A DNA stretch of 64,000 bases, taken from Thermoanaerobaculia bacterium. Lineage in GTDB: Bacteria > Acidobacteriota > Thermoanaerobaculia > Multivoradales > UBA5704. Positions 11,787-53,617 of this stretch are shown here, one piece after another. Within the stretch, counting starts at the first letter, position 1; the number at the start of each line of letters is the position of its first letter. The notes below the pieces were generated by a model. The model was not told where the DNA came from and made no database searches. It saw only the letters and a list, made by a program, of their open reading frames with translations. Both the position numbers and the translations under genes were made by a program. The stretch lies in contig DASZZM010000026.1 in assembly GCA_035544895.1 (NCBI GenBank), positions 35,914 to 99,913 of the forward strand, in the 5' to 3' direction.

Positions 11787-11801
11787 AGCATTGAATCTAA
11801 T

Positions 11802-11848: not shown

Positions 11849-11889
11849 GCAGATTGGCGGCACCGCCTTCGACGAGGCGACTGTGCGCC

Positions 11890-13533: not shown

Positions 13534-13590
13534 GGCGGCCCATCGTAGCTCAGCGCGGCCGAAGCTCCTCCTCGGGGATATGATCCCCTC

Positions 13591-22212: not shown

Positions 22213-22344
22213 GCCCCAGAGCTTACTCCCCTTACCGCGCCCCCGCCCCTCGCAGCAGGCAAGTTCGTTCTCGAGCGGCGCGGGCGAGTGGACTGTGCGA
22301 CACTGAGAATTCCTGGTGTCGGTGCATGGACGGCGGGAATCTCG

Positions 22345-23130: not shown

Positions 23131-23305
23131 GGGACCCGGCGCTTTCCGGGCTCGATTCGAACCGAGCGGGCACTACTTACATGGAGGAGTCCGTGCGCCG
23201 TCGGTCGCGAAGCCGTGCCTGCCGCCATTCCTGTATCGTCAAAGCGAACCACGCGGAGCGCCGGGCCCGGGGAGCGGCCTCCGCGCCAGATCGAGGAGAG
23301 TTGCG

Positions 23306-25964: not shown

Positions 25965-28900
25965 GTGCCGACTCCCGCGACGCTTCTCGCCATGGACCCC
26001 GGCGAGCGCCTTCCGGCCCTGATTTCGTACCTGCGCCAGCAGGCCGCGCGCGCGCTGCGCCTGGGCCCCGAGGCCGTCGATCCGCGGCGGCCGTTGACCG
26101 GCTACGGTCTCGACTCGCTTGCCGCCGTCGAGCTCGGCTTCGCGGTCCAGACCGACCTCGGGATCGACCTGCCGTACTACGAGCTGCTGGAAGGATCGAC
26201 GCTGGCCGAGCTGGCCGGGCAGCTGCTGGCGCGGCTCGCCGCGGAGGAAAGGCCCGTCTCCGAGCCACCGGCCCCCCCGCCCGGCGCGAGCCAGCCCGAA
26301 GGCCCCGCCGGCGCCGGCCGCGCTGACCGCGCCGGCCGCGCTGACCGCAGCCAGGTGCCGGCAAACGACGCGGGCGAACCCCTGTCCCACGGGCAGAAGG
26401 CTCTCTGGTTCCTGCACCGGTTGGCGCCGCAGAGCCCGGCATACACCATCGCCGTGGCGCTGCGGGTGCGCGGCACTCCCGCCGGCACTCCACTGGCAAG
26501 CGTCCTGGGCCGCGCTCTCGCGGCCCTCGCCAACCGTCACGAAAGCCTGCGCGGCTGCTTCGCCGTCAGCGCCGGCGAGCCGGTGCACCGGCTCGGCGAG
26601 GGCGTCGCTCCCGCCCTGGAGGTGATCGATGCGCGGGGCTGGGACGCCGCCCGGCTGCGCCGCCGCCTCAACGACGAGGCCTGGAGACCGTTCGACCTGG
26701 CCGAGGGTCCGCTGCTGCGCGCCCGGCTGTTCACCGGCGGGCCGGGAGAGGCGGTCCTGCTCTTTGCCATTCATCACATCGCCGCCGATCTCTGGTCCCT
26801 CGCCATCGTGGCGCGCGAGCTCGGAGCGCTCTGTTCCGGGGAGCCGCTGGCGCCGGTGGCGGCCTCCTACGGAGATTGGGTCCGCCGCCAGCAGGAGAGG
26901 CTCGCCGGCGCCGAGGGTGAGCGGCTCTGGGAGTACTGGCGCCGCCGGCTCGGCGGCGAGCTGCCGGTCCTCGAGCTGCCCGCCGACCGCCCGCGTCCCG
27001 CGACCCAGAGCTTCCTGGGAGCCGTCCGCTCGCGCCGCCTGGCGGAGAGCGCGGAGGGTGCGCACCGCCTGGCTGGCGCGGCGGCGGCCCATCGGGCGAC
27101 CCTCCATTCGTTGCTCGCCGCGGTCTACCTGGCGCTGCTCCACCGCTACACGGGGCAGGCGGACATCCTGATCGGGACGCCGGCCGCGGGCCGCGGCGCC
27201 GCGGATCTCGCCGGCGTGGTCGGCTACTTCGTCAACCCGGTGGTGGTGCGGGCCGACCTGGCGGGCAATCCGACCTTCGGCGAGCTCTTCGCCCAGGCGC
27301 GGGAAGCGATGCTCGCGGCCCTCGCCCACCAGGATTTCCCCTTCCCTTTGCTGGCCGAGCGCCTGCGTCCGGAGCGGGACCCCGGCCGTTCGCCTCTCCT
27401 CCAGACCGTTTTCGCGCTGCAGAGGGCGCCGGTCCAGGGCCCGCCCGAGCTGGCCGCGGTCGCGCTCGGCGAAGACGGGGTCCGGTTCCGCGCCGGCGCC
27501 CTGGAGCTGGAGTCGGTGGCGCTCGAGACCCCGTTCTCGCAGTTCGACCTGGCGCTGTCCGCGGCCGAGATCTCGGGCTCTCCATCTCTCGGCTTGGGCC
27601 TGACGGCGCAGTACGCGACCGATCTCTTCGACGGCGCGACCATGGACCGGCTTCTCGGGCATTTCGCGGCCTTGCTGGCGGGAGCGGCGGCCGATCCCCG
27701 GGCCCGGGTGTGGGAGGTGCCGCTGCTCGACGAGGCGGAGCGGCGGCAGCTCGCGGCATGGAGCGGCGCCGGGGAGCGCCACGCCGTGCGCGGATCGCTG
27801 CACGGCCGGTGGGAGATCTGTGCGCGGAGGCGGCCGGACGCGGTGGCGCTGGCCTGGGAGGACGAGTCGGTGAGCTACGGCGAGTTCGACCGGCTGGGCA
27901 ACCGGTTGGCGCGGCGGCTGCTGGCAGCAGGGGTGGAGCCGGGCTCTCGGGTGGGACTGGCGGCCGGGCGTGGCGTGGGGCTGGTGACCGGCATCCTGGG
28001 GATCCTCAAGGCCGGCTGCGCCTACGTGCCGCTCGATCCGAGTTATCCGCGGGAGCGGCTGGCCTGGGTGCTGGAGGACGCCGCGGCGGCTGCCCTCGTG
28101 AGCGAGCCCGAGGCGCTGGCCGAGCTGCCGGCGTGGCCGGGCCGGGTGCTGCCGCTGCTGCCCGCCGCCGACGCCGCCGACCCCCCCAAGCAGCAGAGCG
28201 GCCGCGGGAAGGCCGGGCCGGGCGGCGAGCGGGAAGCCGGCGCGGCGGCGAGCCCGGCGGTGGCGGCCGGTCCGGAATGGCCGGCCTACGTGATCTACAC
28301 CTCCGGCTCGACAGGCCGGCCGAAAGGGGTCGTGGTCACCCACGGCAACGTGCTGCGGCTGCTGGCGGCGACGCCGGGATGGTTCGCTTTCGGCGAGCAC
28401 GACGTCTGGACGCTGCTCCATTCGTTCGCCTTCGATTTCTCGGTGTGGGAGCTTTGGGGCGCGCTATTGCACGGCGGCCGCCTGGCGGTGGCGCCGTTCG
28501 CGGTGAGCCGCTCGCCGGCGAGGCTGGCCGAGCTGGTCGAGCGCGAACGGGTGACGGTGCTGAATCAGACGCCGGCGGAGTTTGCCGCGCTGCAGCCGAT
28601 CGCACTGGAGAACAGGCCGGCGGACCTGACCAGCCTGCGCTGGGTGATCCTCGGGGGCGAGGCGCTCGACACGCGGATGCTCCAGGGCTGGTGGCGGCGG
28701 CACGGGGCATCGAGTCCCGGGCTGGTGAACCTGTACGGCACCACCGAGGCGACGGTGTACCAGACCTATCGCCGCCTGGGGGAAGCCGAGATCCTCGGCC
28801 GGCCGGGAAGCGCCGGCGCCAGCGTGATCGGAGTGCCGCTGCCCGACCTGCGGGTGTGGGTACTCGACGGCTGGGGCGAGCCGCAGCCGGCCGGCGTGGC

Positions 28901-31900
28901 CGGAGAGCTGTACGTGGGCGGAGCGGGGGTGTCGCAGGGCTACCTGGGACGTCCGGACCTGACGGCGTGGCGCTTCGTGCCGGACCGTTTCGGCGCCGAG
29001 GCGGGAGCGCGCCTGTATCGGACCGGAGACCTGGTGCGCTGGCGGGGCAGCGGCGAGCTCGAGTACCTGGGGCGTATCGACCGGCAGATCAAGCTGCGCG
29101 GCTTTCGCATCGAGCTCGGCGAGATCGAGGCCGCGCTCCTCGAGCAGCCGGGCGTGGAGGCGGCGGTGGTGGTGGTGCGCGAGGACCCGCCCGCGCCGGG
29201 TAGGGACCCGGCGAATCCGACCAGCGCCGGCCGCCGCCTGGTCGCCTACGCGGTCGCGCGGGAAGGGACGGACTTTGCCGCCCTGCGGGGCCGGCTGCGC
29301 GCGCGGCTGCCGGAGCACATGGTGCCGTCGGCGTTCGTGCGGCTCGCGGCCCTGCCGCTCGGGCCCGGCGGCAAGGTGGACCGCCGCGCCCTGCCCGCGC
29401 CCGCGCCCAGCGGCGGCGGCGAGGCGGCGGGCGAGGAGCCGGCAGGCGGGCCGCGCACGCTGCCCGCGCGCCTGCTCCAGGGCATCTGGGAGGAGCTTTT
29501 CGGCGTCGACCGCGTCTCCGCGGACGACGACTTCTTCGCCATGGGCGGGCACTCGCTGCTCGCCACCCGTCTGGCCTCGCGTGTGCGCGACGTGCTCGGT
29601 CTCGAAATGCCGGTCGCCCTGGTCTTCCGCGCCCCTACCCTGGGCGGCCTGGCGGCGGCGCTGGAGCGCGAGCTCCTCGACGACCAGCCGCCCGCGCTGC
29701 TCCCACTGAGTCGGCGCGGCGCCCAGGCTGGCGCGCCGCCGGCGTCGTTCGCCCAGGAGCGGCTCTGGTTCCTCGATCGCCTGGAGCCGGGGAGCCCGCT
29801 GTACAACCTGCCGGCCGCCGTCTCTCTAGCCGGACCGTTGGTCCCCGCCGCCTTCGAGCACGCCGTCGCGGAGGTCGTGCGCCGCCACGAGGCCCTGCGC
29901 ACGCGCTTTCGAGAGGTTGCCGGCAGGCCGGTGCAGGTCATCGAGCCAATCGCTCCGGCCGATCCAGCTGCCGCCGCGCCGTCTTCCAGTCACGCTCGAC
30001 CCGCCCCCCGCGGTCCACACGGTCCGCTCGCCCCACTCGCCCTTTTCAGCATGGTGGATCTCGCGGGACTGCCTCGCGGCGCCGCGGAAAGCGAGGCGGG
30101 CCGGCTGGCCGGCGAGGAGGCGCGCCGCCCCTTCGCGCTCGACCGCGGGCCGCTCCTGCGCTGCCGGCTGCTGCGCCTCGCGCCGCGGCGCCACACCTTC
30201 CTCCTCACCCTGCACCACATCGTCGCCGACGGCTGGTCGATGGGCCTCCTGCTCCGCGAGGTCGCCGCCTTTTACCGGCTCCGCACCGGCGACGAGCCCC
30301 GCGACGGGCCTGCCGGCCTGCCGGAGCCGCCTCTGCAGTACGCCGACTTCGCCGTCTGGCAGCGCGAGTGGCTTCGCGGCGATGCCCTGGAGGTGCGGCT
30401 GGCGCATTTCCAGAAAGCCCTCCGCGGCGTCCCCGTTCTCGCCCTACCGGCCGACCGGCCCCGCCCCGCGGTCGCGGACCACGGGGGGCGGCGCCGGCCG
30501 GTCGCGCTGCCACCACCGCTCGCCGCTTCCCTGCGGGCGCTCTGCCGGCGCGCCGGCGCGACGCCGTTCATGGCCCTGCTGGCCGCCTTCCAGGCGGTGC
30601 TCGCGGCCCACGCCGGCCAGGAGGACTTCGCGGTCGGCGTTCCGGTGGCGGGCCGCACCGCCCTCCAGACGGAGGCGGTGATCGGTCTCTTCGCCAACAC
30701 CGTGGTCCTGCGCGCCGACCTCGCGGGCGACCCATCCTTCCTCGCCCTGCTCGCCCGCGTGCGCGCCGCCGCGCTGGGCGCCTACACCCACCAGGACCTT
30801 CCCTTCGAGAAGGTGGTCGAGGCCCTGGCGCCCGACCGCGACCTCTCCCGCTCGCCGCTCTTCCAGGTGATGTTCGCCCTGGCCGACTTCCCGGCCGCCG
30901 CTCCGGAGCTGCCCGGGATCGACGTGCGCGTCGTGGAGGTCGAGGCGCGGGTCGCCAAGTTCGAGCTGACGCTGGAGCTCGCCGAAGCCGGCGGGGGGTT
31001 CTCCGGCAGCCTCGAGTACAGCTCCGCTCTCTTCGACGCGGCGACCGCGAGCCGCATGGCGGACCATTTCGTCAACCTTCTCGGCGCGATGGTTGCGGCG
31101 CCAGAGCGCCCACTGTCCCTCGCATCCTGGCTCGGCGCGGGCGAGCACCACCAGGTCCTCTACGAATGGAGCGGCAGCCCGGCCCCGGCTCCACTGGCTC
31201 CACTGGCTCCCCTGGCTCCCCAGGCTCCGGAAACCGGGATCGACAAGGCGGCGGACACTATCCTCGGCGCCTTCGCGGCCCAGGCGGCGCGGTCTCCCGA
31301 TGCGATCGCCGTCCATGGGCACGGGGTGGAGCTGAGCTTCGGCTGCCTGGCGCGGCGCGCCGGCTGCCTGGCGGGACGGCTGCGCGAAATGGGAGTGGGC
31401 CAGGAAACCGTCGTGGGAGTGCTCCTCCCCGGCTCTATCGATCTGGCCGTCTCCCTGGTCGCGGTCCTCGCCGCGGGCGGCGCCTATCTGCCTCTCGACC
31501 CGGCCCAGCCGGCCGCGCGCAACGCCTCCCACCTCGCCGACGCCGGCGCCCCCTGGCTGCTGACCCGCGGCGCTCCTCCCCCGCTCCCGGGTTGGCACGG
31601 TGCCGTCGTCGACGTGAGGGAGCGTCCCCTTCCCCCCGGAGTGCGCGCTCACGGTGCTCCCGCGACACACGAGGAGAGCACTCAGTGCATGCCGGACCTG
31701 GGCTCGGGCACCGACCCCAACCAGCTCGCCTACGTGATCTACACCTCCGGCACGACGGGCCGGCCGAAGGGTGTGGCGGTGCCGCACCGCGCCCTCTTGC
31801 GGCTCGCCCTGGCGGCGGCGGAGCACTACCGGCTCGGCCCCGGTGACCGGGTGCTGCAGTTCGCCTCCCCGGCTTTCGACGTCGCCGCCGAGGAGCTCTT

Positions 31901-45100: not shown

Positions 45101-48100
45101 GCCGATGCGCGGAGCGGCAGGAGCGAGGTCGGGCGGCCGCTCGCCGACCTCGCGGTGCGGGTGCTCGATCCGGGTCTCCGGCCGGCGCCGATCGGCATCC
45201 CGGGAGAGCTCTGCGTCGGCGGCGCGGGCCTGGCCCGCGGCTATCTCGGCCGGCCGGAGCTGACCGCCGAGCGTTTCGTTCCCGATCCCTTCGCCCGCTC
45301 CGCTGGCGACGGCGGCGCGCGGCTCTATCGCTCCGGGGACCTCGCCCGCTGGCGGCCCGACGGCGACATCGAGGTGCTCGGGCGCATCGATCTCCAGGTC
45401 AAGATCCGCGGCTTCCGCATCGAGCCCGGGGAGATCGAAGCCGCCCTCCGCGAGCACCCCGGGGTTCGGGAGTGTGCGGTCCTGGCGAGCGAGGAGGCCG
45501 GCGGCCACCGCCGCCTGATCGCCTACCAGGTGTCGCGCGGCGAGCCGGTTCCGGCCGCCGAGCTGCGGGCCTTCCTGGCCGAGCGCCTTCCCGGACCCAT
45601 GCTGCCGGCGGGCTTCGTGGCGCTCGCCAGCCTGCCCCTCACCGCTCACGGCAAACTCGACCGCCGCGCCTTGCCCGCTCTCGCGCCCGCTGCCATGCGC
45701 CCGAGCGGAGAGGCCGCCCGGCCGCAAACACCGCGCACGCCGGTCGAGCAAGCGATCGCGGCGAGCTGGTCCGAGGTCTTGGATGTACGGCGCGTCGGCC
45801 TCGACGACGATTTCTTCGCCTTGGGCGGCGACTCGATCCGCGGCATCCAGGTGCGGGTGCGGGCCGAAGAGCGCGGGGTGAGCTTCACCCTGCGGCAGCT
45901 CTTCCAGCACCCCACCGTCCGCAATCTTGCGGAGGTGGCGGCGGAGGTGGATGCGGAGGGGTCCGAAATGACCGGGCCGGCGGTCGGGCCCGGCACGCCG
46001 CCCTTTTCCCTGATCTCGGCGGCCGACCGCTCCCGGCTCCCGGAGGGGGTCGAAGATGCCTATCCGCTGACCCGCACCCAGGCCGGCCTGGTCTTTCACA
46101 GCGAGTACGGCCGCGACTACCAGATCTACGTGAGCAGCCTGCACCTGCGGGCGCCGCTCGACGTCGGCAGGCTGCGGCTCGCCCTCTCCCGGCTCGTCGC
46201 CCGGCACCCCCTGCTGCGCACCTCTTTTGCCCTGCAAGGCTTCTCCGCGCCGCTTCAGCTCGTCCACCGTGCGGGGCGCGAAGGAGAGCCGCTCCGGCCC
46301 GAGCTGGCGGTGGTGGACCTGCGTGGCCTCGCTCCGGCGGTCCAGGAAGAGGTGGTCACGCGCTGGCTCGCCGTCGAGGTGCGGCGCAAGTTCGACTGGG
46401 GACGGCCGCCTCTCATCCGCCTGCACCTCCACCCTCGCGGCGAGGACACTTTCCAGCTCACCCTCTCCGAGCCCTTCCTCGACGGCTGGAGCGTGGGCCT
46501 CTTCCTGACCGAGCTCTTCACCCGCTATCTGGCTCTCGTCGCCGCTGCCCGTCCCCAGCTCGGCCTGCCGGCCGAGCCGCCCGACGAGCGGCCGCTCGCC
46601 AGCTCCTTCGCCGACTATGTCGCCCTGGAACGAGACGCGCTGGCCTCCGCCGAGCAGCGGGCCTTCTGGGAGCTGCGCGGTGATCGCGGCGATGGCGGCG
46701 CCTCGCGCCTGCCGCGCAATTGCCCCGTCGTCTGCGCCGTCGTCCGCGCCGCGCCTGGCGCCGGCCCGCCACCGCCCGTGGTGCGTCTCGAAGTGCCGGT
46801 CCCGCGGACCGTCTCGCTCGGCCTGCGGCAGGCGGCACTCGGGGCCGGCGTGCCGCTCAAGGACCTGCTGCTCGCGGCCCACCTTCGGGTCCTTGCGTTC
46901 TTGACTGGGGAATCGGACGTGGTCACCGCCCACCTCATCAACGGGCGCCCCGAAGGCGCCGACGGCGACCGGATCCTCGGCGGCTTCCTCAATGCCATGC
47001 CTTTCCGCATGCGCCTGGTCCCGGGCTCCTGGCTCGACCTGGCAAGGCAAACCTTCGCCACCGAGCTCGAGCTGCTCCCCTTCCGGCGCTATCCCCTGGC
47101 TGAGATGGCCGAGATGGCCGAGCTGCAGCGCCGGCGCCCGGCCGATCCGGTCGACCCGGCAGCAGGGAATCGACCGGAGGGCGGCGGGTCCCTGCCCGCC
47201 GCCATTGGACGGCCACCTTTCGACACGCTCTTCAACTTCACCCACTTCCATCTCTACGAGCGTCTGCAGAGGATTCCAGGACTGGCCGTCCTGGGCAGCG
47301 CGGGCTCGGAGCAGACCTACTTTCCGCTGACCGCGCAATTCAACCTCGACGAGATCACCGCACAGGTCACCCTCGGCCTCGACTACCTGGCGGCCGAGCT
47401 CGCACCGGCCGAAGCGTCGGCCATTGCCGCCCGCTACGACCGGGTCCTGGCAGCCATTGCCCGCGCGCCGCTCTCTCCTCACGACGGCCTCTGCCTGCTC
47501 TCCCCGGCGGAGCGCCAGCAGGTCGTCCTGGAGTGGGGGGAAATGGATGCCCCCTACCGCTTCTCGGAGCAGAGGAGTTTCCTGCGAGGAGAACCCGTAA
47601 CCGGCCTCGCGCATGAGCTGTTCGCGGCCCAGGCGGCGCGGCGGCCCGACGCCCGCGCCTTGCTCTGGGAACAGACCACGCTGACCTACGGCGAGCTCGC
47701 CGCGCGCGCTTCGAGCCTGGCGCGCCGCCTCGCCGCGGCAGGGGCGGGCCCCGAAGCGCGGGTCGGCGTGCTTCTCGAGCGCTCTCCGCAGATGGTCGCG
47801 GCAATCCTCGGCGCGCTGGCGGCCGGCGCCGCCTATGTCCCCCTCGACCCCGGCTATCCGCCCGAGCGGACCGCCGCGATGATCGCGGGCGCACGGGCCG
47901 GAGTGGTGGTGACGCGGCGCGGCCTCGTCGAGCTGCTGCCGCCGGAGGTCTCGTGCCTGCTGGTCGACGAGCCGGACGAGGGTGCGCCCGTGCCAGCCAA
48001 TCTATCGGATCGCCCCCTGCGACCTGCCGGGAGTGCCGCCAATGGCGGGAGCGGCGGCCAACCCCTCGATCCCCCTCCCACCCTCTCGCAGCACGGAGTT

Positions 48101-51100
48101 TCGTCTTTCCACCCGGACGGACGCGGGGCGCTCCCCGCAAACCTCTTTGCCGTGATCTTCACCTCGGGCTCGACGGGACAACCCAAGGGAGTCGCCATCG
48201 AACACCGCGGCGTCAGCCACTTCCTGGCCGCCGCCGCGCGCCTCTTCGGGCCCGCGGACCGCGCGGGCGTTCTGGCCGCCGCCTCGATCTGCTTCGACCT
48301 CTCGATCTTCGAGCTGTTCCTGCCGCTCGCCAACGGCGGCACGGCCGTTCTCGCCGGCGGTGCGCTCGACCTTCCCCGCCTGCCGGCGCGCGAGGACGTC
48401 ACCATGGCTTGCCTCGTGCCTTCCACCGCCGCGGACCTGGTGCGTTCCGGCGGCGGCTTTCCGGACTCGTTGCGGGCCCTCACCCTCGGCGGCGAAGCCC
48501 TTCCCGCTCCGCTCGTCCAGGCGCTCGTCGCAAGCGGTGCGGCTTGCCGGGTTTCCAATCATTACGGACCGACCGAGGCCACCATCTACTCGCTGTTCGC
48601 CCCCGTCGATTGCAAGGGAGGGGGCGGGGGCGGCGCCGATGCCGGCGCGCCGCCGATCGGCCGGGCGGTCGCGGGAGAGCGCGCCCTGCTGCTCGACGGC
48701 TGGCTGCAACCGGTCGCTCCCGGAGTGCCGGGCGAGATCTGCCTGGGCGGCAGCGGCCTGGCGCGTGGCTATTTCGCGCGTCCCGACCTCACCGCCGAGC
48801 GCTTCGTGCCGGATCCCGCCTCCGCGCTCCACGGCGAGCCCGGCGCACGCCTGTACCGCACCGGCGACCTCGCCCGCCAGCTCCCCGACGGCCGGATCGA
48901 ATTCCTGGGCCGCCGCGACCACCAGGTGAAGGTGCGCGGCTTCCGCATCGAGCTCGGCGACGTGGAGGCGGCGGTCGCTCGGCACCCCGAAGTCGCCCAG
49001 GCCGTGGTGGTGGCGCGTGGCGAAGAGGGCATCGGTCCGGACGGCGTCCGGCTGGTGGCCTACGTCGTGGCGCGCGATTCTCGGCGGACCTCCGCCGCCG
49101 GGCCGGCTGCCCAACCGCTAGCCCACGACGCTTCCTGGGCCGCTGAGCTGCGCGACTTCGCCGCGCTGCGCCTCCCGCCTTTCATGGTCCCCTCCGTCTT
49201 CGTCACGCTGGACGCCCTGCCGCTCACCCCCGCCGGCAAGGTCGACCGCCGAGCCCTCCCGGCGCCGCCCGACCGGCGCGGCGGCGGCGGCGCGCGGCCC
49301 CTGGTCGCTCCGCGCACGCCGGTCGAGGAAGTGCTCTGCGGGCTGTGGGCCGAGGTCTTCGGCATGGAGCGGGTGAGCGCCGGCGACGATTTCTTCGCTC
49401 TCGGCGGCCACTCCCTGCTGGCCACGCGCCTGATCTCGCGGCTGCGCGCCGCCTTCCGGCTGGAGCTGCCGCTCGACGCCCTGTTCGCGGCGCCGCGCCT
49501 CTCCGACCTGGCGCGGGTGATCGAGGGCGAGCTCGCCGGCGGAGACGCCGCGGGTCCCGCGGAGCCGCCGCTGGCCGCCGGTCCGCGGCCGGACGCCGTG
49601 CCTCTCTCCTTCGCCCAGCAGCGGCTCTGGTTCCTCGACCGCCTGCAACCGGGGAGCTGCCTGTACAACATCCCGAATGCCACCCGCTTGCGCGGCGGGC
49701 TCGCCGCGCCGGCACTGGCCGCCGCCTGCCTGGAGATCGTGCGCCGTCACGAGGTCCTCCGCACCCGCTTTCCGGCGGTCGAGGGACGGCCGGTCCAGGA
49801 GGTCTCGGCGGAGCCGGAGGCGCCATTGCCGCTGCTCGATCTCGCGGCGCTCTCGGTCGCTGCACGCGAGGCCGAGACGGCGCGCCTGTGCGCCGCCGCG
49901 GCCCGCCGCCCCTTCGATCTCGGGAGCGGCCCCGTCCTGCGGCTCCTGCTCTTGCGGCTGGCGTCCGAGGAGCACGTGCTGCTCTCGGTGGTGCACCATA
50001 TCGCCGCCGACGGCTGGTCGGTCGATGTCTTCCTGCGCGAGCTGGCGCTGCTCTACCGCGCCTTCTCTGCCAAGGAGCGGTCTACCGCGCCGCCCTTGCC
50101 CGCGCTCCCGCTGCAATACGCCGATTTCACCTTGTGGCAGCGCGCCCGCCTGCAGGGCGCGGTGCTCGACCGCCAGCTCGCCTGGTGGCGCGAGCGGCTG
50201 CAGGGCGTCCCGCCGTTGACTTTGCCGGCCGACCGTCCCCGGTCGTCGACCCCGGCCTACCGGGGGGCCCGCCGCCGCCTCGAGCTGCCGGCCGGCGTGG
50301 CGGAGGCCGCGGCCGGCCTCGCCCGCCGCGAAGGGGCGACCCTGTTCATGACCGTCCTCTGCGCTTTTGCGGCGGTGCTCGGACGGCATGCCGGGCAAGA
50401 GGACTTTGCAATCGGCTATCCCATCGCCAATCGCAACCGGTTGGAAATCGAGCCCTTGATCGGGTTCTTCGCCAACACCTTGGTGCTGCGCGCGGATCTC
50501 GCCGGCGACCCCGCGGGGCGGGACCTGCTCGGCCGCTGCCGCGAGGCGGTGCTCGGCGCCCATGCCCACCAGGACCTGCCGTTCGAGAGGCTGGTCGAAG
50601 AGCTGCGCCCCGAGCGCGACCTCTCGCGGACGCCGCTCTTCCAGGCGGCGCTGGCGTTTCAGAATGCCCCTCCGGCGGACGTCGCCCGGATCGATCTGCC
50701 AGGCCTCGCCGCTACCCCCGTCGAGATCGAGCCGGGGGCCGCCCGTTTCGAGCTCACTCTCTTCCTGGTCGAGCAACGCGACGGATGCCCGGGGAGCGCG
50801 GCTGCCCTTGCGGGCGAGCTCGAATGGAACGCCGACCTCTTCGACCGGGCCACCGCCGCCCGCTTCCTCGGCCATTTCAGGATCCTGCTCGCGGACCTCG
50901 CCGCCGACGCGGGGCGGCGGCTCTCGGAGCTGTCCCTGCTGACCGAGGCGGAGCGCCACCAGGTCCTTTACGAGTGGGCGAAGGGAAGGCTGCCCGAGAT
51001 CGGCGAAGCCGGAGAGGTCGGCGCGGCCGAGCCGCTGGTTCACCGGCTCATCGCGGCGCAAGCGGCACGGACACCCGCGGCGGCCGCGATCGCCCACGCG

Positions 51101-53617
51101 GGTGGCGAGCTGCTGACCTACGGCGCCCTGGCAGCGCGCACCCAGCGACTCGCCCGCCGCCTGCGGGCCAGCGGCGTTGGTCCCGAGGTCGTGGTAGGTA
51201 TTCGCATGGAACGCGGAGCCCCGGCGCTGGTGGCGATCCTCGCCGTGCTCGAGGCGGGCGGGGCCTACCTGCCGCTCGACCCGTCCTACCCGGACGAGCG
51301 ACTCGCCTTCATGCTCGCCGACGCCGGCGTCCGGCTCGTGCTCGACGAGAGCTCCGAGAGCGCGGTGGCAGACTCCGAGCCGGCCTCCAACGCCGGGCAG
51401 GGACCCGGCGATGTCAGACCGTCCGATCTCCAGCCCCTGCCCGAGAACGCCGCCTATGTGATCTACACCTCGGGCTCCACCGGCCAACCGAAAGGAGTGG
51501 TGGTGAGTCATCGCGCGCTCCTGCGCTCGACGCGCGCCCGCCTGCAGGGCTACTCCGGGCTGGTGCCGGCTTTTCTGCTGCTCCCCTCCCTGGCCTTCGA
51601 CAGCTCGGTAGCGGTCATCTTCTGGACTCTCTGCCAGGGAGGCCGCCTGGTCATTCCGGACAGGAGCCGGCAGTCCGACCCCGTCGAGCTCGCGCGCCTC
51701 ATCGCCGAGCACGGCGTCTCGCATTGGCTGAGCATTCCGCCGCTCTACGCCCAGCTGCTCGCCCATCACCCGCAGCCCTCCGACCTTGGCCCGCTGCGCA
51801 CCGTCATCGTGGCCGGCGAGCCTTGTCCCGCCCAGCTCGTGGCCGAGCATCACGCCCGCCTTCCGGGCGTGATGCTCCACAATGAGTACGGACCCACCGA
51901 GGCCACGGTGTGGGCGACCGTCGACGCGCCGGCTCCCGGAGGAACGGTGACGATCGGCCGGCCGATCGCGGGCGTCGAGGCCCGCCTGCTCGATCGCGCC
52001 CTGGCGCCGGTGCCCGCCGGCGTCGGCGCCGAGCTCCTGATCGGCGGAGCCGGCCTGAGCCGCGGCTACCTCGGCCGGCCCGGCCTGACCGCGCGGCGCT
52101 TCATTCCCGACCCGCTCGCCGGGATCTCGGCCGAGCCCGGCGCCCGGCTCTATCGCACCGGCGACCTCGCGGGCTGGCTGCCCGACGGCCGCCTGGAGCT
52201 CCGGGGACGGATCGACCGCCAGGTCAAGATCCGCGGCTTCCGCATCGAGCTGGGCGAAGTCGAGGCTGCCTTGCTGCGCCACCCTGGCGTGCGGCGGGCC
52301 GCCGCGCTCGCCCGCGATCTCCCCTCCGGCGGCCGCGGGCTGGTGGCGTGCTTCGAGCCGGCGGCGGAGCTTCCGGCGGCCGCTCTGGCGCCCGCCGAGG
52401 CGCGCCGTTACCTGGCCGAGCGCCTGCCCGCTCCCATGGTCCCTGCCGAGCTGTTCGCGCTCCCGGCTCTGCCGCTGCTGCCCAATGGCAAGGTGGACGA
52501 TCGGGCCCTGCTCGCCCTGCTGCCGGCGAGCGCGGACTCCGCGGGGCGCCAGCCCGGGACGCCCGCGGACGAGCTGGAGACGCGCCTGGCGGGACTCTGG
52601 GCGGACCTCTTGGGCCTCGCCGCGGTGGGTCGGAGCGACAGCTTCTTCGAGCTGGGCGGCCATTCGCTCCTGGCCGTCGAGCTGATGGCCCGGATCCAGC
52701 GGGAGCTCGGACGCAAGCTCCCTCTCGCCGCGCTCTTCCGCGGCGCCACCGTCGAGTCCATGGCCGCCGCGCTGCGCCAGGAAAGCGGCCCGCTGCTCGC
52801 CAGGCCGCTCGTCGCCATCCGGCCGCGCGGGGCCGAGCGCCCCTTCTTCTGGGTCCACCCGCTGGGAGGCCGCACGCTTTGCTACGCCGATCTCGCCCGC
52901 CGCCTGGCCGGCCGTCCGAGCTACGGGCTCGAGGCGCCGGGGAGTGACGGCCTCGGCGAACCCTCCGCCAGCGTCGAGGAGCTCGCGGCGCTCTACGTCG
53001 AGGCCCTCGGCCGGGTCCAGACGAGCGGGCCCTACTTGCTTGGCGGTTGGTCTTTCGGCGGACTGATCGCCTGGGAGATGGCCCGGCAGCTCGCCGAGCG
53101 CGGCGCGGCAGTGGCGCTCGTGGCCCTCCTCGACACGACCCTGCCGAGCCCGCGGACTCTGCGGACCCTGCGGACCCTGCAGACCCTGCGGGGACCGGCC
53201 GGAGAGCCTTCGCGCCGCGACGACGTCTCTCTCTCCGCTCTGCTGCGCGCCGAACCAGGTGGCGCGGCCCTCGACCAGCGGCAGCTCGACCGTCTCCTCG
53301 CGGTCGTCGAGGCGCATCTGCACGCCTTCGCCGCCTATCGTCCGCGGCCCCTCGCCTGTCCCGTCGCGCTCCTGGGGGCGGAAGAGCGCCCGCCCGCGGC
53401 CGGCGCCGGCGCTCGCGGAGTCGCGGCCTGGCGCCGCCTGGCGCGCGGTCCGTTCCACTATCGCCGGATCCCGGGAGATCACTACGCCATGCTGCGCGAG
53501 CCCCGGGTCAGCCACGTTGCCACCGAGCTGGAAGCGCTCCTGGCTCGCACAGCGCGGAATTCTCGCCGGCAGGCGTCGCAAGGAGACGCGGCTCCACGGC
53601 CGAGCGAGGTAAACTAA
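39191..53617 (+). CDS. Non-ribosomal peptide synthetase 2 (about 4800 aa). Domain order C-A-T-C-A-T-C*-A-T-C-A-T-TE.
   Basis: The ATG at 39191 overlaps the NRPS1 stop (ATGA). Four A domains (SGSTGQPKGV or SGSTGRPKGV) and four T domains. Three canonical C domains (HHIAADGWS). One C-like domain where the motif is SEPFLDGWS. Terminal thioesterase (GGWSFGGLIAWE). The 5034-aa ORF in the track begins in a different frame upstream. Confidence 0.95.
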   Translation: MSGGRADRLARLEKLSPAKQALLARALRERAARQQGGAIPRRPGSERGGRGGSSPAPLSFGQQRLWLERQMSPDSPVYNLPVAVRIEGRLDARALAAALSEVVRRHEVLRSGIERRGEELVQVVAPAAAVPLALADLSGLPASGRQAEVARLGADHARRLFDLSRPPLVRAALLALGGDEHRLLLALHHIAADGWSSAILVRELGELYAARAAGRPSPLGELPIQYADWAAWQRGRLAGELLAAELDYWRERLAGLPPLELPADRPRPPAASFRGRRRERLLAPRLHGALADLSRRQGATMFMTLAAGFAALLGRWTGQDDLAVGTPVAGRTRLETEGLIGFFVNILVLRADLAGSPSFTQLLSRLRATVAAAHAHQELPFERLVEELAPARDPGGHPLVQAILALHNAAREQLALPGLALTLLETDTGTAKLDLALEIVEQPEGGLAAGLEVASDLFDATTAARLLGHFEALLAGAAAAPAMPLRDLPLLGAAEIHQLVREHNDTRSAYPRDSAVAELFAEWARAAPQAPAVLAEGREPWSYGRLAAESHRLAWHLRSLGVERESRVGVSMERSPELIAALLAILQAGGAYVPLDPGYPDSRLRFMLQDTGTRLLLVHEPTRQRLAALEWPDGAPPVRLLCVDAEREVIAGRGSAPPPRSPVSAGAEGLAYVLYTSGSTGQPKGVAVPHRAIARLVRGTNYVRLGPADRVAHLSNISFDAATFEIWGALANGGATVVIEREAVLSPARLAARLREAAVTAMFLTAALFDQVVGEQPAAFSALRHLLVGGDALDPQSVARALAAGPPERLLNGYGPTESTTFAVWHEVRHVPPGSLSVPIGRPLANTTAHVVDRRGELASTGQVGELWLGGDGLARGYLGRPDLTAERFVPDRWSREPGGRLYRTGDLARRRWDGVIDCLGRIDQQVKIRGFRVEPGEIEAVLAACPGVRDCAVVARLQVSSPAHPITSPAPPIRSPALVAYVVAAPAAGLREALVWEHLRRSLPGYMLPVACRFVESLPLTPNAKLDRAALAALDPLDLLEITAGPPAQDYAAPRDPIEELLAGIWEKVLGIDRIGVRDDFFVLGGHSLLAARLAARVHQVFGIDLPLRTLFETPTVAGVAAAIRATLATRSPRSDTVSGVQPPAPIPRAGRGEGGPRPLSFGQQRLWFIYQMNPRSAAYNLLVALLLAGALDRRALAAALAEVVRRHEVLRTAIVAEGGPAGAAQRLTPPPAPRLPVVDLSGLAEPVAGAESLRLAAAEALQPFDLGRPPLLRAALLALAAPADGPAGGSAGGGPPRHLLVLTLHHIAADGWSSAILVRETAALYAAFAAGRQSPLPEPPLQYADWAAWQRGRLSGELLASQLAWWRQRLAGLPDLRLPADRPRPAVESFRGLRRSRLLPAGASARLDELSRRQGATLFMTLAAAFAAVLRRLGGEEDFGLGTPIAGRTRMETEGLIGFFVNTLVLRFDVPGDPAFSRLLAHAREALLEGYSHQDLPFERLVEELAPRRDLSRQPLVQAFVVLQNTPREPLALPGLTATELAVDNRTAKTDLTLDVARAGGGLRAELEANHDLFDAATAARMLSHLETLLAAAAADPEQPLSRLPLLSAAERHQMIVEWGGLAEARAPAGWTLHNAFESRARLSPAALALSCAGEQVSYGELDARANRLARHLRSLGAGPEVRVGLCLARSAETVVALLAVLKAGGAYLPLDPDYPRERLALLLADAAAPLVVTRSNLAGLLPAAGPLQILLDRDAEAIARQPSGPLPPAAGPDHAAYVIYTSGSTGRPKGVVVTHRNVARLFIAAAPWLELAGDDVWTLFHSFAFDFSVWEIWGALLHGGRLVVVPYWASRSPDTFRGLLRDEQVTVLNQTPSAFRQLVEAEERVVPAPTGPYPAVRSGALGPYPAIQSDAPGPYPALRLILFGGESLDPRHLRTWFARHGDRRPRLFNLYGITETTVHVTCRPLAAADARSGRSEVGRPLADLAVRVLDPGLRPAPIGIPGELCVGGAGLARGYLGRPELTAERFVPDPFARSAGDGGARLYRSGDLARWRPDGDIEVLGRIDLQVKIRGFRIEPGEIEAALREHPGVRECAVLASEEAGGHRRLIAYQVSRGEPVPAAELRAFLAERLPGPMLPAGFVALASLPLTAHGKLDRRALPALAPAAMRPSGEAARPQTPRTPVEQAIAASWSEVLDVRRVGLDDDFFALGGDSIRGIQVRVRAEERGVSFTLRQLFQHPTVRNLAEVAAEVDAEGSEMTGPAVGPGTPPFSLISAADRSRLPEGVEDAYPLTRTQAGLVFHSEYGRDYQIYVSSLHLRAPLDVGRLRLALSRLVARHPLLRTSFALQGFSAPLQLVHRAGREGEPLRPELAVVDLRGLAPAVQEEVVTRWLAVEVRRKFDWGRPPLIRLHLHPRGEDTFQLTLSEPFLDGWSVGLFLTELFTRYLALVAAARPQLGLPAEPPDERPLASSFADYVALERDALASAEQRAFWELRGDRGDGGASRLPRNCPVVCAVVRAAPGAGPPPPVVRLEVPVPRTVSLGLRQAALGAGVPLKDLLLAAHLRVLAFLTGESDVVTAHLINGRPEGADGDRILGGFLNAMPFRMRLVPGSWLDLARQTFATELELLPFRRYPLAEMAEMAELQRRRPADPVDPAAGNRPEGGGSLPAAIGRPPFDTLFNFTHFHLYERLQRIPGLAVLGSAGSEQTYFPLTAQFNLDEITAQVTLGLDYLAAELAPAEASAIAARYDRVLAAIARAPLSPHDGLCLLSPAERQQVVLEWGEMDAPYRFSEQRSFLRGEPVTGLAHELFAAQAARRPDARALLWEQTTLTYGELAARASSLARRLAAAGAGPEARVGVLLERSPQMVAAILGALAAGAAYVPLDPGYPPERTAAMIAGARAGVVVTRRGLVELLPPEVSCLLVDEPDEGAPVPANLSDRPLRPAGSAANGGSGGQPLDPPPTLSQHGVSSFHPDGRGALPANLFAVIFTSGSTGQPKGVAIEHRGVSHFLAAAARLFGPADRAGVLAAASICFDLSIFELFLPLANGGTAVLAGGALDLPRLPAREDVTMACLVPSTAADLVRSGGGFPDSLRALTLGGEALPAPLVQALVASGAACRVSNHYGPTEATIYSLFAPVDCKGGGGGGADAGAPPIGRAVAGERALLLDGWLQPVAPGVPGEICLGGSGLARGYFARPDLTAERFVPDPASALHGEPGARLYRTGDLARQLPDGRIEFLGRRDHQVKVRGFRIELGDVEAAVARHPEVAQAVVVARGEEGIGPDGVRLVAYVVARDSRRTSAAGPAAQPLAHDASWAAELRDFAALRLPPFMVPSVFVTLDALPLTPAGKVDRRALPAPPDRRGGGGARPLVAPRTPVEEVLCGLWAEVFGMERVSAGDDFFALGGHSLLATRLISRLRAAFRLELPLDALFAAPRLSDLARVIEGELAGGDAAGPAEPPLAAGPRPDAVPLSFAQQRLWFLDRLQPGSCLYNIPNATRLRGGLAAPALAAACLEIVRRHEVLRTRFPAVEGRPVQEVSAEPEAPLPLLDLAALSVAAREAETARLCAAAARRPFDLGSGPVLRLLLLRLASEEHVLLSVVHHIAADGWSVDVFLRELALLYRAFSAKERSTAPPLPALPLQYADFTLWQRARLQGAVLDRQLAWWRERLQGVPPLTLPADRPRSSTPAYRGARRRLELPAGVAEAAAGLARREGATLFMTVLCAFAAVLGRHAGQEDFAIGYPIANRNRLEIEPLIGFFANTLVLRADLAGDPAGRDLLGRCREAVLGAHAHQDLPFERLVEELRPERDLSRTPLFQAALAFQNAPPADVARIDLPGLAATPVEIEPGAARFELTLFLVEQRDGCPGSAAALAGELEWNADLFDRATAARFLGHFRILLADLAADAGRRLSELSLLTEAERHQVLYEWAKGRLPEIGEAGEVGAAEPLVHRLIAAQAARTPAAAAIAHAGGELLTYGALAARTQRLARRLRASGVGPEVVVGIRMERGAPALVAILAVLEAGGAYLPLDPSYPDERLAFMLADAGVRLVLDESSESAVADSEPASNAGQGPGDVRPSDLQPLPENAAYVIYTSGSTGQPKGVVVSHRALLRSTRARLQGYSGLVPAFLLLPSLAFDSSVAVIFWTLCQGGRLVIPDRSRQSDPVELARLIAEHGVSHWLSIPPLYAQLLAHHPQPSDLGPLRTVIVAGEPCPAQLVAEHHARLPGVMLHNEYGPTEATVWATVDAPAPGGTVTIGRPIAGVEARLLDRALAPVPAGVGAELLIGGAGLSRGYLGRPGLTARRFIPDPLAGISAEPGARLYRTGDLAGWLPDGRLELRGRIDRQVKIRGFRIELGEVEAALLRHPGVRRAAALARDLPSGGRGLVACFEPAAELPAAALAPAEARRYLAERLPAPMVPAELFALPALPLLPNGKVDDRALLALLPASADSAGRQPGTPADELETRLAGLWADLLGLAAVGRSDSFFELGGHSLLAVELMARIQRELGRKLPLAALFRGATVESMAAALRQESGPLLARPLVAIRPRGAERPFFWVHPLGGRTLCYADLARRLAGRPSYGLEAPGSDGLGEPSASVEELAALYVEALGRVQTSGPYLLGGWSFGGLIAWEMARQLAERGAAVALVALLDTTLPSPRTLRTLRTLQTLRGPAGEPSRRDDVSLSALLRAEPGGAALDQRQLDRLLAVVEAHLHAFAAYRPRPLACPVALLGAEERPPAAGAGARGVAAWRRLARGPFHYRRIPGDHYAMLREPRVSHVATELEALLARTARNSRRQASQGDAAPRPSEVN
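48020..48059. repeat. Single copy of the 40-bp REP-like element, inserted in-frame in the third A domain of NRPS2.
   Basis: CGACCTGCCGGGAGTGCCGCCAATGGCGGGAGCGGCGGCC, encoding PAGSAANGGSGG in the variable loop before the SGSTGQPKG core motif. Confidence 0.65.

What the first reader, a model, noticed from the sequence alone, without database searches (positions are those of the whole stretch)
25965..53617. Two-gene, seven-module NRPS with an N-terminal carrier-protein starter, an embedded N-methyltransferase, one epimerase and a terminal thioesterase.
About 27.6 kb, in two coupled genes (ATGA overlap with docking tails). NRPS1 begins with a free T domain followed by a C domain. This suggests that an acyl or aminoacyl starter is loaded in trans, as in a lipopeptide or a split loading module encoded elsewhere. 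The combined domain order is T-C-A-T-C-A-T-E-C-A(MT)-T / C-A-T-C-A-T-C*-A-T-C-A-T-TE. The product is probably a heptapeptide with one D-residue and one N-methylated residue. No loading adenylating enzyme, MbtH or transporter is in the window.
Basis: partly seen in the sequence, partly recalled or inferred. Interest (0 to 1): 0.7.

Follow-up and report, generated by a model that had tools for sequence, protein, structure and literature searches.

The report
Orphan seven-module NRPS from an acidobacterium
This is a real but uncharacterised two-gene peptide-synthesising assembly line from an uncultured soil acidobacterium; it is ordinary in kind, but it starts with a bare carrier domain and contains a dehydrating domain that lacks the usual catalytic histidines.

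Summary
Two translationally coupled genes (25965/25992-39194 and 39191-53617, + strand) encode T-C-A-T-C-A-T-E-C-A(MT)-T / C-A-T-C-A-T-C*-A-T-C-A-T-TE.

The source is an uncultured Thermoanaerobaculia (Acidobacteriota) MAG. No close characterised relative was found. The nearest sequences are a 95-97% identical metagenome strain and a ~65% identical metagenome orthologue.

- **Starter.** The N-terminal T0-C1 pair belongs to a family in which 71 of 127 related loci have a fatty-acyl-AMP ligase (FAAL) fused or adjacent upstream. Only 7 loci start with T, as this one does. No FAAL, MbtH or PPTase is in the window. T0 is ACP-like (GLDSL). An acyl starter loaded in trans is likely but unproven.
Its HHxxxDG motif is replaced by SEPFLDG. 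This His-less "EP" variant recurs in about 20 metagenomic NRPSs, always directly after a Thr or Ser module.
- **Predicted product.** (Acyl)-Thr-D-Xaa-NMe-(Gly-like)-Val/Ile-Dhb-Xaa-His.

Verdict: a new member of a known kind, with one undocumented domain variant. Interest is moderate.

The parts
25965..39194 (+). NRPS gene 1 (4400-4409 aa): T0-C1-A1-T1-C2-A2-T2-E-C3-A3(MT)-T3 plus a C-terminal docking tail. The start is either GTG 25965 (GAGG lies 8 nt upstream) or ATG 25992 (the start called in the JGI relative).
25992..26276 (+). T0: N-terminal carrier domain, ACP-like motif GLDSL. Nothing is fused upstream of it.
   Evidence: dN/dS against the 95% relative is 0.30 (only 7 substitutions)
26379..27752 (+). 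C1: LCL-like condensation domain (HHIAADLWS). It belongs to the family that normally follows FAAL-ACP.
27819..29375 (+). A1, Stachelhaus code DFWNIGLVYK (Thr-like, 8/10 to DFWNIGMVHK)
29472..29663 (+). T1 (GGHSL)
29739..31157 (+). C2 (HHIVADGWS), LCL group
31284..32777 (+). A2, code DVENVGAVTK (unassigned; loosely Orn/Lys-like from memory of published codes)
32877..33065 (+). T2 (GGDSI, the form typical upstream of E domains)
33150..34511 (+). E: epimerisation domain (HHLAVDAVSW, EGHGRE)
34581..35927 (+). C3: DCL-type condensation domain
36000..38798 (+). A3 interrupted by a methyltransferase (MT core 37587-37997, VLEIGCGTG). Code DPTQLGVVWK (Gly-like in positions 4-10).
38886..39077 (+). T3
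39078..39358 (+). Inter-protein junction: C-terminal tail of protein 1 (...LDELLDSLEGMAEAEAERLLA...), ATGA overlap at 39191-39194, and the N-terminal 56 aa of protein 2 (...RLARLEKLSPAKQALLARALRERAARQ...). Both tails are conserved in the 65% orthologue.
39191..53617 (+). NRPS gene 2 (4808 aa): C4-A4-T4-C5-A5-T5-C6*(CmodAA)-A6-T6-C7-A7-T7-TE
39359..40687 (+). C4 (HHIAADGWS)
40760..42268 (+). A4, code DAFFLGGTFK (Val/Ile-like)
42374..42565 (+). T4
42668..44041 (+). C5 (HHIAADGWS)
44117..45655 (+). A5, code DFWNLGLVHK (Thr)
45752..45940 (+). T5 (GGDSI)
46013..47590 (+). C6*: CmodAA (dehydrating) condensation domain of the His-less 'EP' variant. SEPFLDG at 46466-46486 replaces HHxxxDG. The CmodAA helix motif KDLLLAAH is retained.
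47633..49240 (+). A6, code DLFCTGHIYK (unassigned; orthologues have DLFAVGQIYK / DLFAFGAVYK / DALFVGAIYK)
49331..49522 (+). T6
49601..50965 (+). C7 (HHIAADGWS)
51062..52492 (+). A7, code DSALIAEVWK (identical to a published His code)
52583..52774 (+). T7
52841..53536 (+). TE: thioesterase (GWSFG)

Best explanation
This is an intact, orphan type-I NRPS assembly line on two docked proteins, from an uncultured Thermoanaerobaculia (Acidobacteriota) bacterium.

**Shown**
- Seven complete C-A-T modules, preceded by an extra N-terminal carrier T0.
- One E domain after module 2, followed by a DCL domain.
- A TioS-like methyltransferase inserted in A3.
- A CmodAA-type condensation domain between modules 5 and 6.
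- A terminal TE.

**Inferred mechanism**
1. T0 is ACP-like. Its homologues are mostly fused to an FAAL. I infer that an adenylating enzyme encoded outside the window, most likely an FAAL, acylates T0.
2. C1 joins that acyl group to Thr-T1.
3. The chain grows as Thr1, D-Xaa2 (epimerised; possibly cationic), N-methyl-Xaa3 (Gly-like pocket) and Val/Ile4.
4. Thr5 is dehydrated to dehydrobutyrine by C6* while still on T5, before or during condensation with residue 6. This is the order established for CmodAA domains.
5. Xaa6 and His7 are added, and the TE releases the product, either linear or macrocyclic.

C6* belongs to a recurrent, previously undescribed subgroup of CmodAA in which the HH dyad is missing (…SEP[FL]LDGWS). 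An invariant Glu-Pro sits there instead, so this subgroup must do its chemistry without the canonical histidine.
For: - **Architecture and intact core motifs:**
- **E and DCL:**
- **N-MT-type interrupted A domain:**
- **CmodAA assignment:** the best solved relatives of C6* are McyA (8jbr, 4.8e-92) and AmbE (7r9x, 2.7e-44), against 1e-19 or weaker for ordinary C domains. The subclass-specific [K/R]SVLLAAH helix is present as KDLLLAAH.
- **Donor-side dehydration before condensation:** this is the published behaviour of CmodAA domains (PMC10880069, PMC11342130).
- **The EP variant is conserved, not a lesion.** It occurs in L068 and L029, in P0135/6/7, P0145, P0174 and P0177, and in 12 of the 149 best 50%-cluster representatives. 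Identity to the window domain is 43-61%.
- **Every EP domain with context follows a Thr or Ser A domain:** 10/10, plus L068 (Ser) and L029 (Thr).
- **Selection on the whole line.** A 64.7% identical orthologue of gene 2 has the same architecture and the same or near-identical specificity codes. It is preceded by a 65.7% orthologue of the end of gene 1, with conserved docking tails.
- **Starter.** T0-C1 homologues are FAAL-fused or FAAL-adjacent in 71 of 127 loci, and have an FAAL further upstream in 23 more. T0 has the ACP-type GLDSL motif, whereas the other seven carriers have GGHSL or GGDSI. T-first genes recur (L068, L086, L093, L148, L149, L047), and L047 has an FAAL-NRPS gene 2.6 kb upstream.
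- **A7 = His:** exact match to a published code.
Against: - No loader was found. There is no FAAL or free A domain in 26 kb upstream or 10 kb downstream. None lies in the 10 kb upstream of the T-first relatives L068 and L093 either. L068 has only a truncated A-domain fragment there.
- C1 looks like an ordinary LCL domain (Txo1/2 are the best hits; CDA-C1 only 3e-10). It is not a classical starter C.
- C6* lacks the second His. That residue was required in AmbE (H1497A). Condensation or dehydration by an EP-type domain has never been shown.
- The EP group is not recovered as a robust clade once the motif columns are removed (2 of 50 NJ bootstraps), although its members are each other's nearest neighbours.
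- The A2, A3 and A6 codes match nothing in the searchable literature, so three of seven residues are guesses.
- The codes were read off an alignment to a GrsA sequence recalled from memory. It was validated only by reproducing the canonical DAWTIAAICK and the residue numbering.
Confidence: 0.6

Rival explanations
1. T0 carries an amino acid rather than a fatty acid. It would be loaded by A1 acting on both T0 and T1, or by a stand-alone A domain elsewhere. The product would then be an uncapped octapeptide (for example Thr-Thr-...), not a lipopeptide.
For: C1 is LCL-like (peptidyl/aminoacyl donor type) by its best PDB matches, Txo1/2, TycC and DhbF-like. No FAAL lies within 36 kb. L068 keeps an A-domain remnant upstream.
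Against: T0 has the ACP-type GLDSL motif, unlike the PCP-type GGHSL of the other carriers. The T0-C1 family is overwhelmingly FAAL-linked (94 of 127 loci), and C domains that follow FAAL-ACP in those loci are the closest relatives of C1.
Confidence: 0.15
2. T0 is a leftover of a lost FAAL-T loading unit and is not used. C1 would take acyl-CoA directly, as classical starter C domains do, or module 1 would start the chain with a free amine.
For: The gene begins exactly at T0, only 15-42 bp after an unrelated OEP-like gene. This is compatible with a deletion that removed the FAAL. T-first is the rare state (7 of 127).
Against: The T0 serine motif is intact. T0 evolves like C1 and A1 between two strains (dN/dS 0.30 against 0.34; few sites). 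The same T-first layout is found in at least five other, distantly related (40-48% identity) loci, which argues for a working arrangement.
Confidence: 0.12
3. C6* is catalytically dead because it lost both histidines. The assembly line would be broken after module 5, and modules 6-7 would be unused or decaying.
For: HHxxxDG is replaced by SEPFLDG. The second His is needed in AmbE.
Against: The variant is conserved in about 20 sequences down to 43% identity, with invariant E-P and an intact DGWS and KxxLLAAH. Downstream modules and the TE are intact here and in the 65% orthologue. His-less CmodAA domains with real functions are already known in the bleomycin family.
Confidence: 0.08
4. C6* makes Dhb5 but then promotes a conjugate (Michael) addition rather than, or in addition to, ordinary amide formation. 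An example would be the His7 imidazole or a residue-6 amine adding to Dhb, giving a cross-linked or branched peptide.
For: Published CmodAA domains that lack both histidines (BlmVI/TlmVI/ZbmVI-C2) do conjugate addition instead of amide formation, and another CmodAA group does side-chain conjugation. In the EP group a His module sits two modules downstream in 3 of 4 scorable cases (5 of 6 counting P0237 and P0241), against 1 of 56 for other CmodAA domains (Fisher p = 5e-4).
Against: The His-containing cases are one gene-cluster family, so they are not independent. Other EP domains are followed by Ala-, Gly-, Leu- or Dab-type modules with no His. A mid-chain addition in place of an amide bond would leave the chain tethered to T5.
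Confidence: 0.12

Closest known systems
FAAL-ACP-C lipoinitiation modules of lipopeptide NRPSs (e.g. PvdL; FAAL/ACP systems of cyanobacterial and myxobacterial lipopeptides)
   Same: T0-C1 is homologous (40-49% identity) to the ACP-C pair that follows an FAAL in most related loci. The carrier motif is ACP-type.
   Different: The FAAL is absent from the gene and from the 64 kb window. Only about 6% of related loci share this T-first layout.
CmodAA / dehydrating condensation domains (McyA-C1, AmbE-C, AlbB-C2/C3, Crz1-C2)
   Same: They are the best solved relatives. The domain has the KxxLLAAH helix and DGWS, sits directly after a Thr module, and follows a GGDSI-type carrier.
   Different: The HH dyad is missing and is replaced by S-E-P, two residues shorter. 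The documented exceptions are F-G/F-A (bleomycin type) or single-His substitutions. No paper in the searchable library mentions an SExxxDG or EP form.
Aryl-capped siderophore NRPSs with an N-terminal carrier loaded in trans (HMWP2, PchE, MbtB; from general knowledge)
   Same: An N-terminal carrier domain is followed by a condensation-family domain, and the loader is a separate enzyme.
   Different: Those use ArCP plus a cyclisation domain and a neighbouring salicyl/DHB-AMP ligase. Here C1 is LCL-like, relatives use an FAAL, and no ligase is nearby.
TioS A4-M-A4 interrupted adenylation domain (PDB 5wmm)
   Same: End-to-end match of the A8-MT-A9/A10 region, E = 1.4e-84, with the SAM motif intact.
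   Different: The substrate pocket differs (DPTQLGVVWK, Gly-like). The methylation site (N, as opposed to a side chain) was not tested.
Uncharacterised metagenomic orthologue (JGI 3300063339 contig Ga0599171_0000817; P0237/L085)
   Same: Gene 2 is 64.7% identical over 4700 aa, with identical module order, identical Thr and His codes, the EP-type C* and conserved docking tails.
   Different: The genes are separated by ~58 nt rather than overlapping. An aminotransferase follows gene 2, instead of the M48 peptidase. The 5' end of gene 1 is off the contig.

Membership tests
Modular type-I NRPS | Repeating C-A-T modules with intact core motifs (HHxxxDG, A-domain cores and Lys517, a Ser in each T) | tested here: met
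   C6* is the one exception: it lacks HH.
Modular type-I NRPS | Terminal release domain (TE with GxSxG) | tested here: met
   Thioesterase E = 5.7e-31; GWSFG
FAAL-ACP-C lipoinitiation | A fatty-acyl-AMP ligase fused to, or encoded next to, the carrier | tested here: not met
   tblastn with an FAAL from a relative finds only weak A-domain matches in the window.
FAAL-ACP-C lipoinitiation | Carrier plus C domain homologous to those downstream of FAALs | tested here: met
   71 of 127 homologous loci are FAAL-fused or FAAL-adjacent, and 23 more have an FAAL upstream
Classical starter C domain (Cstarter, acyl-CoA/acyl-ACP acceptor at the N-terminus) | Sequence clusters with Cstarter domains such as CDA-C1 or SrfA-A C1 | tested here: not met
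   Best PDB hits are LCL domains (Txo2 7e-69, Txo1, TycC). CDA-C1 scores only 3e-10. No full phylogeny with NaPDoS references was run.
CmodAA (dehydrating) condensation domain | Closest to McyA-C1 / AmbE-C rather than to LCL, DCL or E domains | tested here: met
   8jbr 4.8e-92 and 7r9x 2.7e-44, against 1e-19 or weaker for the others
CmodAA (dehydrating) condensation domain | [K/R]SVLLAAH donor-side helix motif (PMC11342130) | tested here: met
   KDLLLAAH; K/R in 75 of 76 and H in 75 of 76 aligned homologues
CmodAA (dehydrating) condensation domain | Sits directly downstream of a Ser/Thr (or other beta-hydroxy) module | tested here: met
   A5 is DFWNLGLVHK. All EP-type relatives follow Thr or Ser.
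CmodAA (dehydrating) condensation domain | Second His of HHxxxDG (needed in AmbE) | tested here: not met
   SEPFLDG at 46466-46486. The literature notes that some CmodAA domains lack it.
CmodAA (dehydrating) condensation domain | Actual dehydration activity | not testable with these tools
   Needs biochemistry or the product structure
Epimerisation domain plus DCL partner | E-specific motifs, and a downstream C domain of the D-clade | tested here: met
Interrupted A domain with backbone N-methyltransferase | MT inserted between A8 and A9, with a SAM-binding motif | tested here: met
Interrupted A domain with backbone N-methyltransferase | Methyl transfer to the alpha-amine rather than to a side chain | not testable with these tools
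   Inferred only from similarity to TioS A4-M
A characterised (MIBiG) cluster | High-identity, collinear match to a cluster with a known product | not testable with these tools
   No MIBiG copy was available. Indirectly: the best non-strain relatives are 65% identical or less, all from MAGs or metagenomes, and no paper links Thermoanaerobaculia to a characterised NRP.

The most novel reading that the evidence does not exclude
The "EP-type" CmodAA domains (…SEP[FL]LDGWS, no histidine dyad) would be a functionally distinct class of condensation domain. They would dehydrate the upstream Ser/Thr using a different base, either the invariant Glu or the retained helix His. In the window's gene-cluster family they would set up a Dhb-Xaa-His C-terminus in which the His imidazole adds to Dhb, a histidinobutyrine-type cross-link. 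The result would be a new cross-linked lipopeptide scaffold from uncultured Acidobacteriota, started from a carrier domain that is loaded by an unlinked enzyme.
Probability: 0.15. Interest if true: 0.7.

Novelty: new member of a known kind. Interest (0 to 1): 0.45.

Why it matters
Acidobacteriota are abundant in soil, almost uncultured and rich in NRPS genes, yet essentially none of their peptides has been characterised. This cluster is complete on one contig, compact (two genes) and has a 65% orthologue, so it is a realistic target for synthesis-based or heterologous discovery.

Two features could teach something general:
- How a carrier-first NRPS gets its starter when no loader is linked to it.
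- How a conserved subgroup of dehydrating condensation domains works without the histidine dyad that textbook C-domain chemistry relies on.

Otherwise it is one more orphan NRPS.

Tried and rejected
- **Whole-protein homology search with gene 1:** timed out.
- **Source genome and close relatives.** Scans of GTDB genomes and JGI metagenomes with T0-C1 gave nothing above 49% identity. The source contig could be traced only through exact protein look-ups, to a Thermoanaerobaculia MAG of 103.5 kb and short Logan contigs. The rest of that genome could therefore not be searched for an FAAL.
- **Literature look-ups** for the A2, A3, A4 and A6 codes, and for an SExxxDG/EP motif, found nothing.
- **Horizontal transfer.** The NRPS is 73-77% GC against 63-70% in the flanks. 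GC3 is similar (0.87-0.90 against 0.81-0.96), and the excess is at codon position 1, which reflects amino-acid composition. I do not claim an island.
- **Promoter and terminator scans** around both gene ends were uninformative.
- **L068's upstream AMP-binding hit as a trans loader.** It is only the C-terminal half of an A domain.
- **L011 (Sorangium).** The ~536 aa upstream of T0 gave no Pfam hit.
- **The "NN" variant** (SSYNNILLDGWS) in four Terriglobia loci is not preceded by Ser/Thr modules, so it was not pooled with the EP type.
- **A clean EP clade.** NJ bootstraps did not support it (2 of 50). An earlier, slower attempt timed out.
- **Nearby genes.** The TauD-family gene 6 kb downstream resembles At3g21360-type enzymes, not the known NRPS beta-hydroxylases I checked. 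It, the upstream methyltransferase, the multicopper oxidase and the OEP gene were not assigned to the cluster. Only the near-identical strain shares these flanks, and the 65% orthologue has different ones.
- **Structure prediction** was not run, because the tools would not return residue-level geometry for the EP loop.
Full report

Yes. The window holds two long + strand ORFs, 25965..39194 and one ending at 53617. The stop of the first overlaps an ATG of the second as ATGA at 39191-39194.

Pfam finds these domains:

| Protein | Condensation | AMP-binding | PP-binding | Other |
|---|---|---|---|---|
| 1 | 5 | 3 | 4 | one class-I methyltransferase |
| 2 | 4 | 4 | 4 | Thioesterase |

A phmmer self-scan with the window's own domains places them in this order:
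- Protein 1: T0-C1-A1-T1-C2-A2-T2-E-C3-A3(MT)-T3
- Protein 2: C4-A4-T4-C5-A5-T5-C6*-A6-T6-C7-A7-T7-TE

- All eight carriers keep the phosphopantetheine serine. The MT has VLEIGCGTG and the TE has GWSFG.
- The start may be GTG 25965, which has GAGG 8 nt upstream. It may instead be ATG 25992, the start called in a near-identical JGI contig. Either way the protein begins with the carrier.

**2. Domain identities**

- **E domain.** It has HHLAVDAVSW and EGHGRE. Its best solved relatives are the E domains of PvdL, TycB, TycA and GrsA.
- **C3.** It follows E, and its best matches are McyB, PvdL, bacitracin synthase 3, SrfA-C and TycB, all acceptors of D-donors. It is DCL-type.
- **A3.** The A8-to-A10 stretch, with its ~420 aa insert, matches the interrupted A-M-A domain of TioS (5wmm) end to end, E = 1.4e-84. 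That supports a backbone N-methyltransferase. The atom methylated cannot be tested here.
- **C1.** It carries HHIAADLWS, and its best relatives are LCL domains (Txo2, Txo1, TycC). CDA-C1, a classical starter C, scores only 3e-10.

**3.

C6* (window 46013-47590) is a CmodAA, or dehydrating, condensation domain.

- Its best solved relatives are McyA (8jbr, 4.8e-92) and AmbE (7r9x, 2.7e-44). Ordinary C domains score 1e-19 or weaker.
- It keeps the subclass-specific donor-side helix [K/R]SVLLAAH as KDLLLAAH.
- It follows a Thr module (A5, DFWNLGLVHK).
- The carrier before it has GGDSI, the form seen before E domains.
- Published work shows that CmodAA domains dehydrate the donor Ser/Thr on the upstream carrier before condensation (PMC10880069, PMC11342130).

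What is unusual is the active-site motif. HHxxxDG is replaced by SEPFLDG (46466-46486). In a MAFFT alignment of 76 relatives the segment is two residues shorter and contains no histidine.

This is not a private lesion:
- The same [SVCAY]-E-P-x-[LF]-D-G-W-S form occurs in two genome loci, L068 and L029.
- It occurs in six database fragments.
- It occurs in 12 of the 149 best 50%-identity cluster representatives.
- Identity to the window domain is 43-61%.

Every such domain whose context could be read sits directly after a Thr- or Ser-specific A domain. That is 10 of 10, plus L068 (DVWHVSLVDK) and L029 (DFWNIGMVHK). Among other CmodAA-like domains in the same set, 62 of 112 met my strict Ser/Thr pattern.

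Two cautions apply:
- EP members are each other's nearest neighbours, but NJ bootstrapping with the motif masked does not recover them as a clade (2 of 50).
- I found no paper that mentions this form. The corallorazine paper documents other His-less CmodAA domains (bleomycin-type F-G/F-A, which do conjugate addition) and a few single-His substitutions.

**4. Substrate predictions**

Codes were read from an alignment to GrsA-PheA. That sequence was recalled from memory; it reproduced DAWTIAAICK and the 235/322/517 numbering.

| Domain | Code | Reading |
|---|---|---|
| A1 | DFWNIGLVYK | Thr-like |
| A2 | DVENVGAVTK | unassigned |
| A3 | DPTQLGVVWK | Gly-like in positions 4-10 |
| A4 | DAFFLGGTFK | Val/Ile-like |
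| A5 | DFWNLGLVHK | Thr |
| A6 | DLFCTGHIYK | unassigned |
| A7 | DSALIAEVWK | His |

- Only A7 has a documented exact match, a His code (PMC12283262).
- The Thr, Val/Ile and Gly-like readings rest on my knowledge of published codes. The loosely cationic reading of A2 (Orn/Lys-like) also rests only on that.
- Nothing was found in the literature for A2, A3 or A6.

**5. The carrier-first start**

T0 carries GLDSL, an ACP-type motif. The other carriers have GGHSL or GGDSI.

T0-C1 has no close relative: the best is 49% identical across a 5.8-billion-protein collection, GTDB genomes and JGI metagenomes. The family, however, is large. I classified the 127 fetched loci that have a T0-like carrier directly before a C1 homologue:

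| Upstream context | Loci |
|---|---|
| FAAL fused or within 400 nt | 71 |
| Other domains fused upstream, FAAL further upstream | 23 |
| Other domains fused upstream, no FAAL in the sequence held | 12 |
| Undetermined | 14 |
| T-first | 7 |

- The T-first loci are the window, L068, L086, L093, L148, L149 and L047. All those with a named source are Acidobacteriota.
- In L047 an FAAL-T-C-A-T-C-A-T gene lies 2.6 kb upstream.
- In L068 only a truncated A-domain fragment lies upstream.
- The window has no FAAL, MbtH or Sfp-type PPTase.
- Between the window and a 95-97% identical JGI strain, which has the same OEP-to-T0 junction, T0 shows dN/dS 0.30. C1 and A1 show 0.34-0.35. T0 has only seven substitutions, so this is weak evidence.

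I conclude that T0-C1 is a lipoinitiation-type pair whose loader is unlinked. Loading in trans by an FAAL is the most likely reading, but it is inference.

**6. Source, context and relatives**

Exact look-ups place the flanking proteins in "MAG TPA: Thermoanaerobaculia bacterium" (HVT15586-HVT15612, locus tag VHQ90_), on a 103,553 bp contig.

The flanks are:
- SpoU methylase, a class-I methyltransferase, a multicopper oxidase and an OEP-like gene upstream, all on the + strand except SpoU;
- an M48 peptidase, MerR, ChrB and a TauD-family gene downstream.

Only the near-identical strain shares these flanks. A true orthologue (JGI 3300063339; P0237/L085) has these features:
- 64.7% identity over residues 60-4776 of protein 2;
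- the same module order and the EP-type C*;
- identical Thr and His codes;
- an upstream fragment 65.7% identical to the end of protein 1;
- clearly conserved docking tails;
- an aminotransferase downstream instead of the peptidase.

I therefore assign only the two NRPS genes to the cluster. The higher GC of the NRPS comes from codon position 1, not GC3, so it is not evidence of transfer.

**7. Comparison with the known, and verdict**

This is a bona fide NRPS whose every domain falls into a described class. It fails one defining feature of FAAL-ACP-C initiation (no FAAL present) and one usual feature of CmodAA domains (no second His). It meets the others.

No characterised counterpart was found, and the phylum has no characterised nonribosomal peptides in the searchable literature. 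MIBiG itself could not be queried.

I rate it a new member of a known kind. It has a recurrent, undocumented His-less CmodAA variant and a rare carrier-first start as its two points of interest.

The boldest reading not excluded concerns the window's cluster family. There a His module lies two modules after the EP domain in 3 of 4 scorable cases, or 5 of 6 counting P0237 and P0241. For other CmodAA domains the figure is 1 of 56 (Fisher p = 5e-4). These cases are phylogenetically non-independent. In this reading the EP domains set up a Dhb-His conjugate addition. I give that about 15%.

Noticed in passing
window 59603-60868 (- strand): A TauD/TfdA-family Fe(II)/2-oxoglutarate dioxygenase (421 aa, Pfam E = 1.2e-50) lies 6 kb downstream of the NRPS. 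Its best solved relatives are At3g21360-type proteins, not the NRPS beta-hydroxylases. A link to the cluster is unknown.
   Followed up: partly
window 22916-25950 (+ strand): A multicopper oxidase gene and an OEP/TolC-like outer-membrane gene sit directly upstream of NRPS gene 1, on the same strand. Only 15-42 bp separate the OEP stop from the NRPS start, and no terminator-like site was found. Co-transcription with the NRPS is possible.
   Followed up: partly
window 1682-11901 compared with L083: In the 95-97% identical JGI strain (L083), window 1-1681 is directly adjacent to window 11902 onward. A ~10.2 kb block (AraC-like regulator, MacB/FtsX permease, M50-like protein, TPR protein and others) is therefore present here and absent at that place in the relative.
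   Followed up: no
window ~26310-26360 (linker between T0 and C1): A short Ala/Gly/Arg/Asp repeat (AGRADRAGRADR) differs by a 3-residue indel from the JGI strain (AGAGRAGRADRADRADR). It is a small repeat-length polymorphism inside the coding sequence.
   Followed up: no
L084 5760-17723 and protein P0241: An N2-like NRPS (56-59% identity) whose first module lacks its A domain (C-T-C-A(Thr)-T-C*EP-A-T-C-A(His)-T-TE). L084 is also broken into several called genes, probably by frameshifts. It starts after unrelated BREX/helicase-like genes, with no N1-like gene in the 5.7 kb held upstream.
   Followed up: partly
L023, L028, L030, L049 at ~13560-14910: Four Terriglobia loci carry a CmodAA-like domain with Asn-Asn in place of the His dyad (SSYNNILLDGWS), next to a normal HH CmodAA further downstream. 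Unlike the EP type, they do not follow Ser/Thr modules. Upstream codes are DIWHISLVEK, DALDSGTVQK and DAWQFITVDK.
   Followed up: partly
L068 5256-5999: A free-standing ORF encodes only the C-terminal half of an adenylation domain (motifs A5-A10, 45% identical to A1). It lies 4 kb upstream of another T-first NRPS, beside a B12-radical-SAM gene and an ABC transporter. It is either a remnant or a split subdomain.
   Followed up: partly
L047 32-9861: An FAAL-T-C-A-T-C-A-T gene ends in a carrier domain. It is followed by a 797 aa protein with no NRPS domain, and then by a T-first NRPS. Two carriers would have to hand over across proteins, or one FAAL serves two lines.
   Followed up: no
window 21694-23130: Two overlapping long ORFs on opposite strands each have a real Pfam hit in non-overlapping parts: SpoU methylase on the - strand (~21777-22203) and a class-I methyltransferase on the + strand (~22570-22866). 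The true genes are shorter than the listed ORFs, which illustrates ORF inflation in this high-GC DNA.
   Followed up: yes
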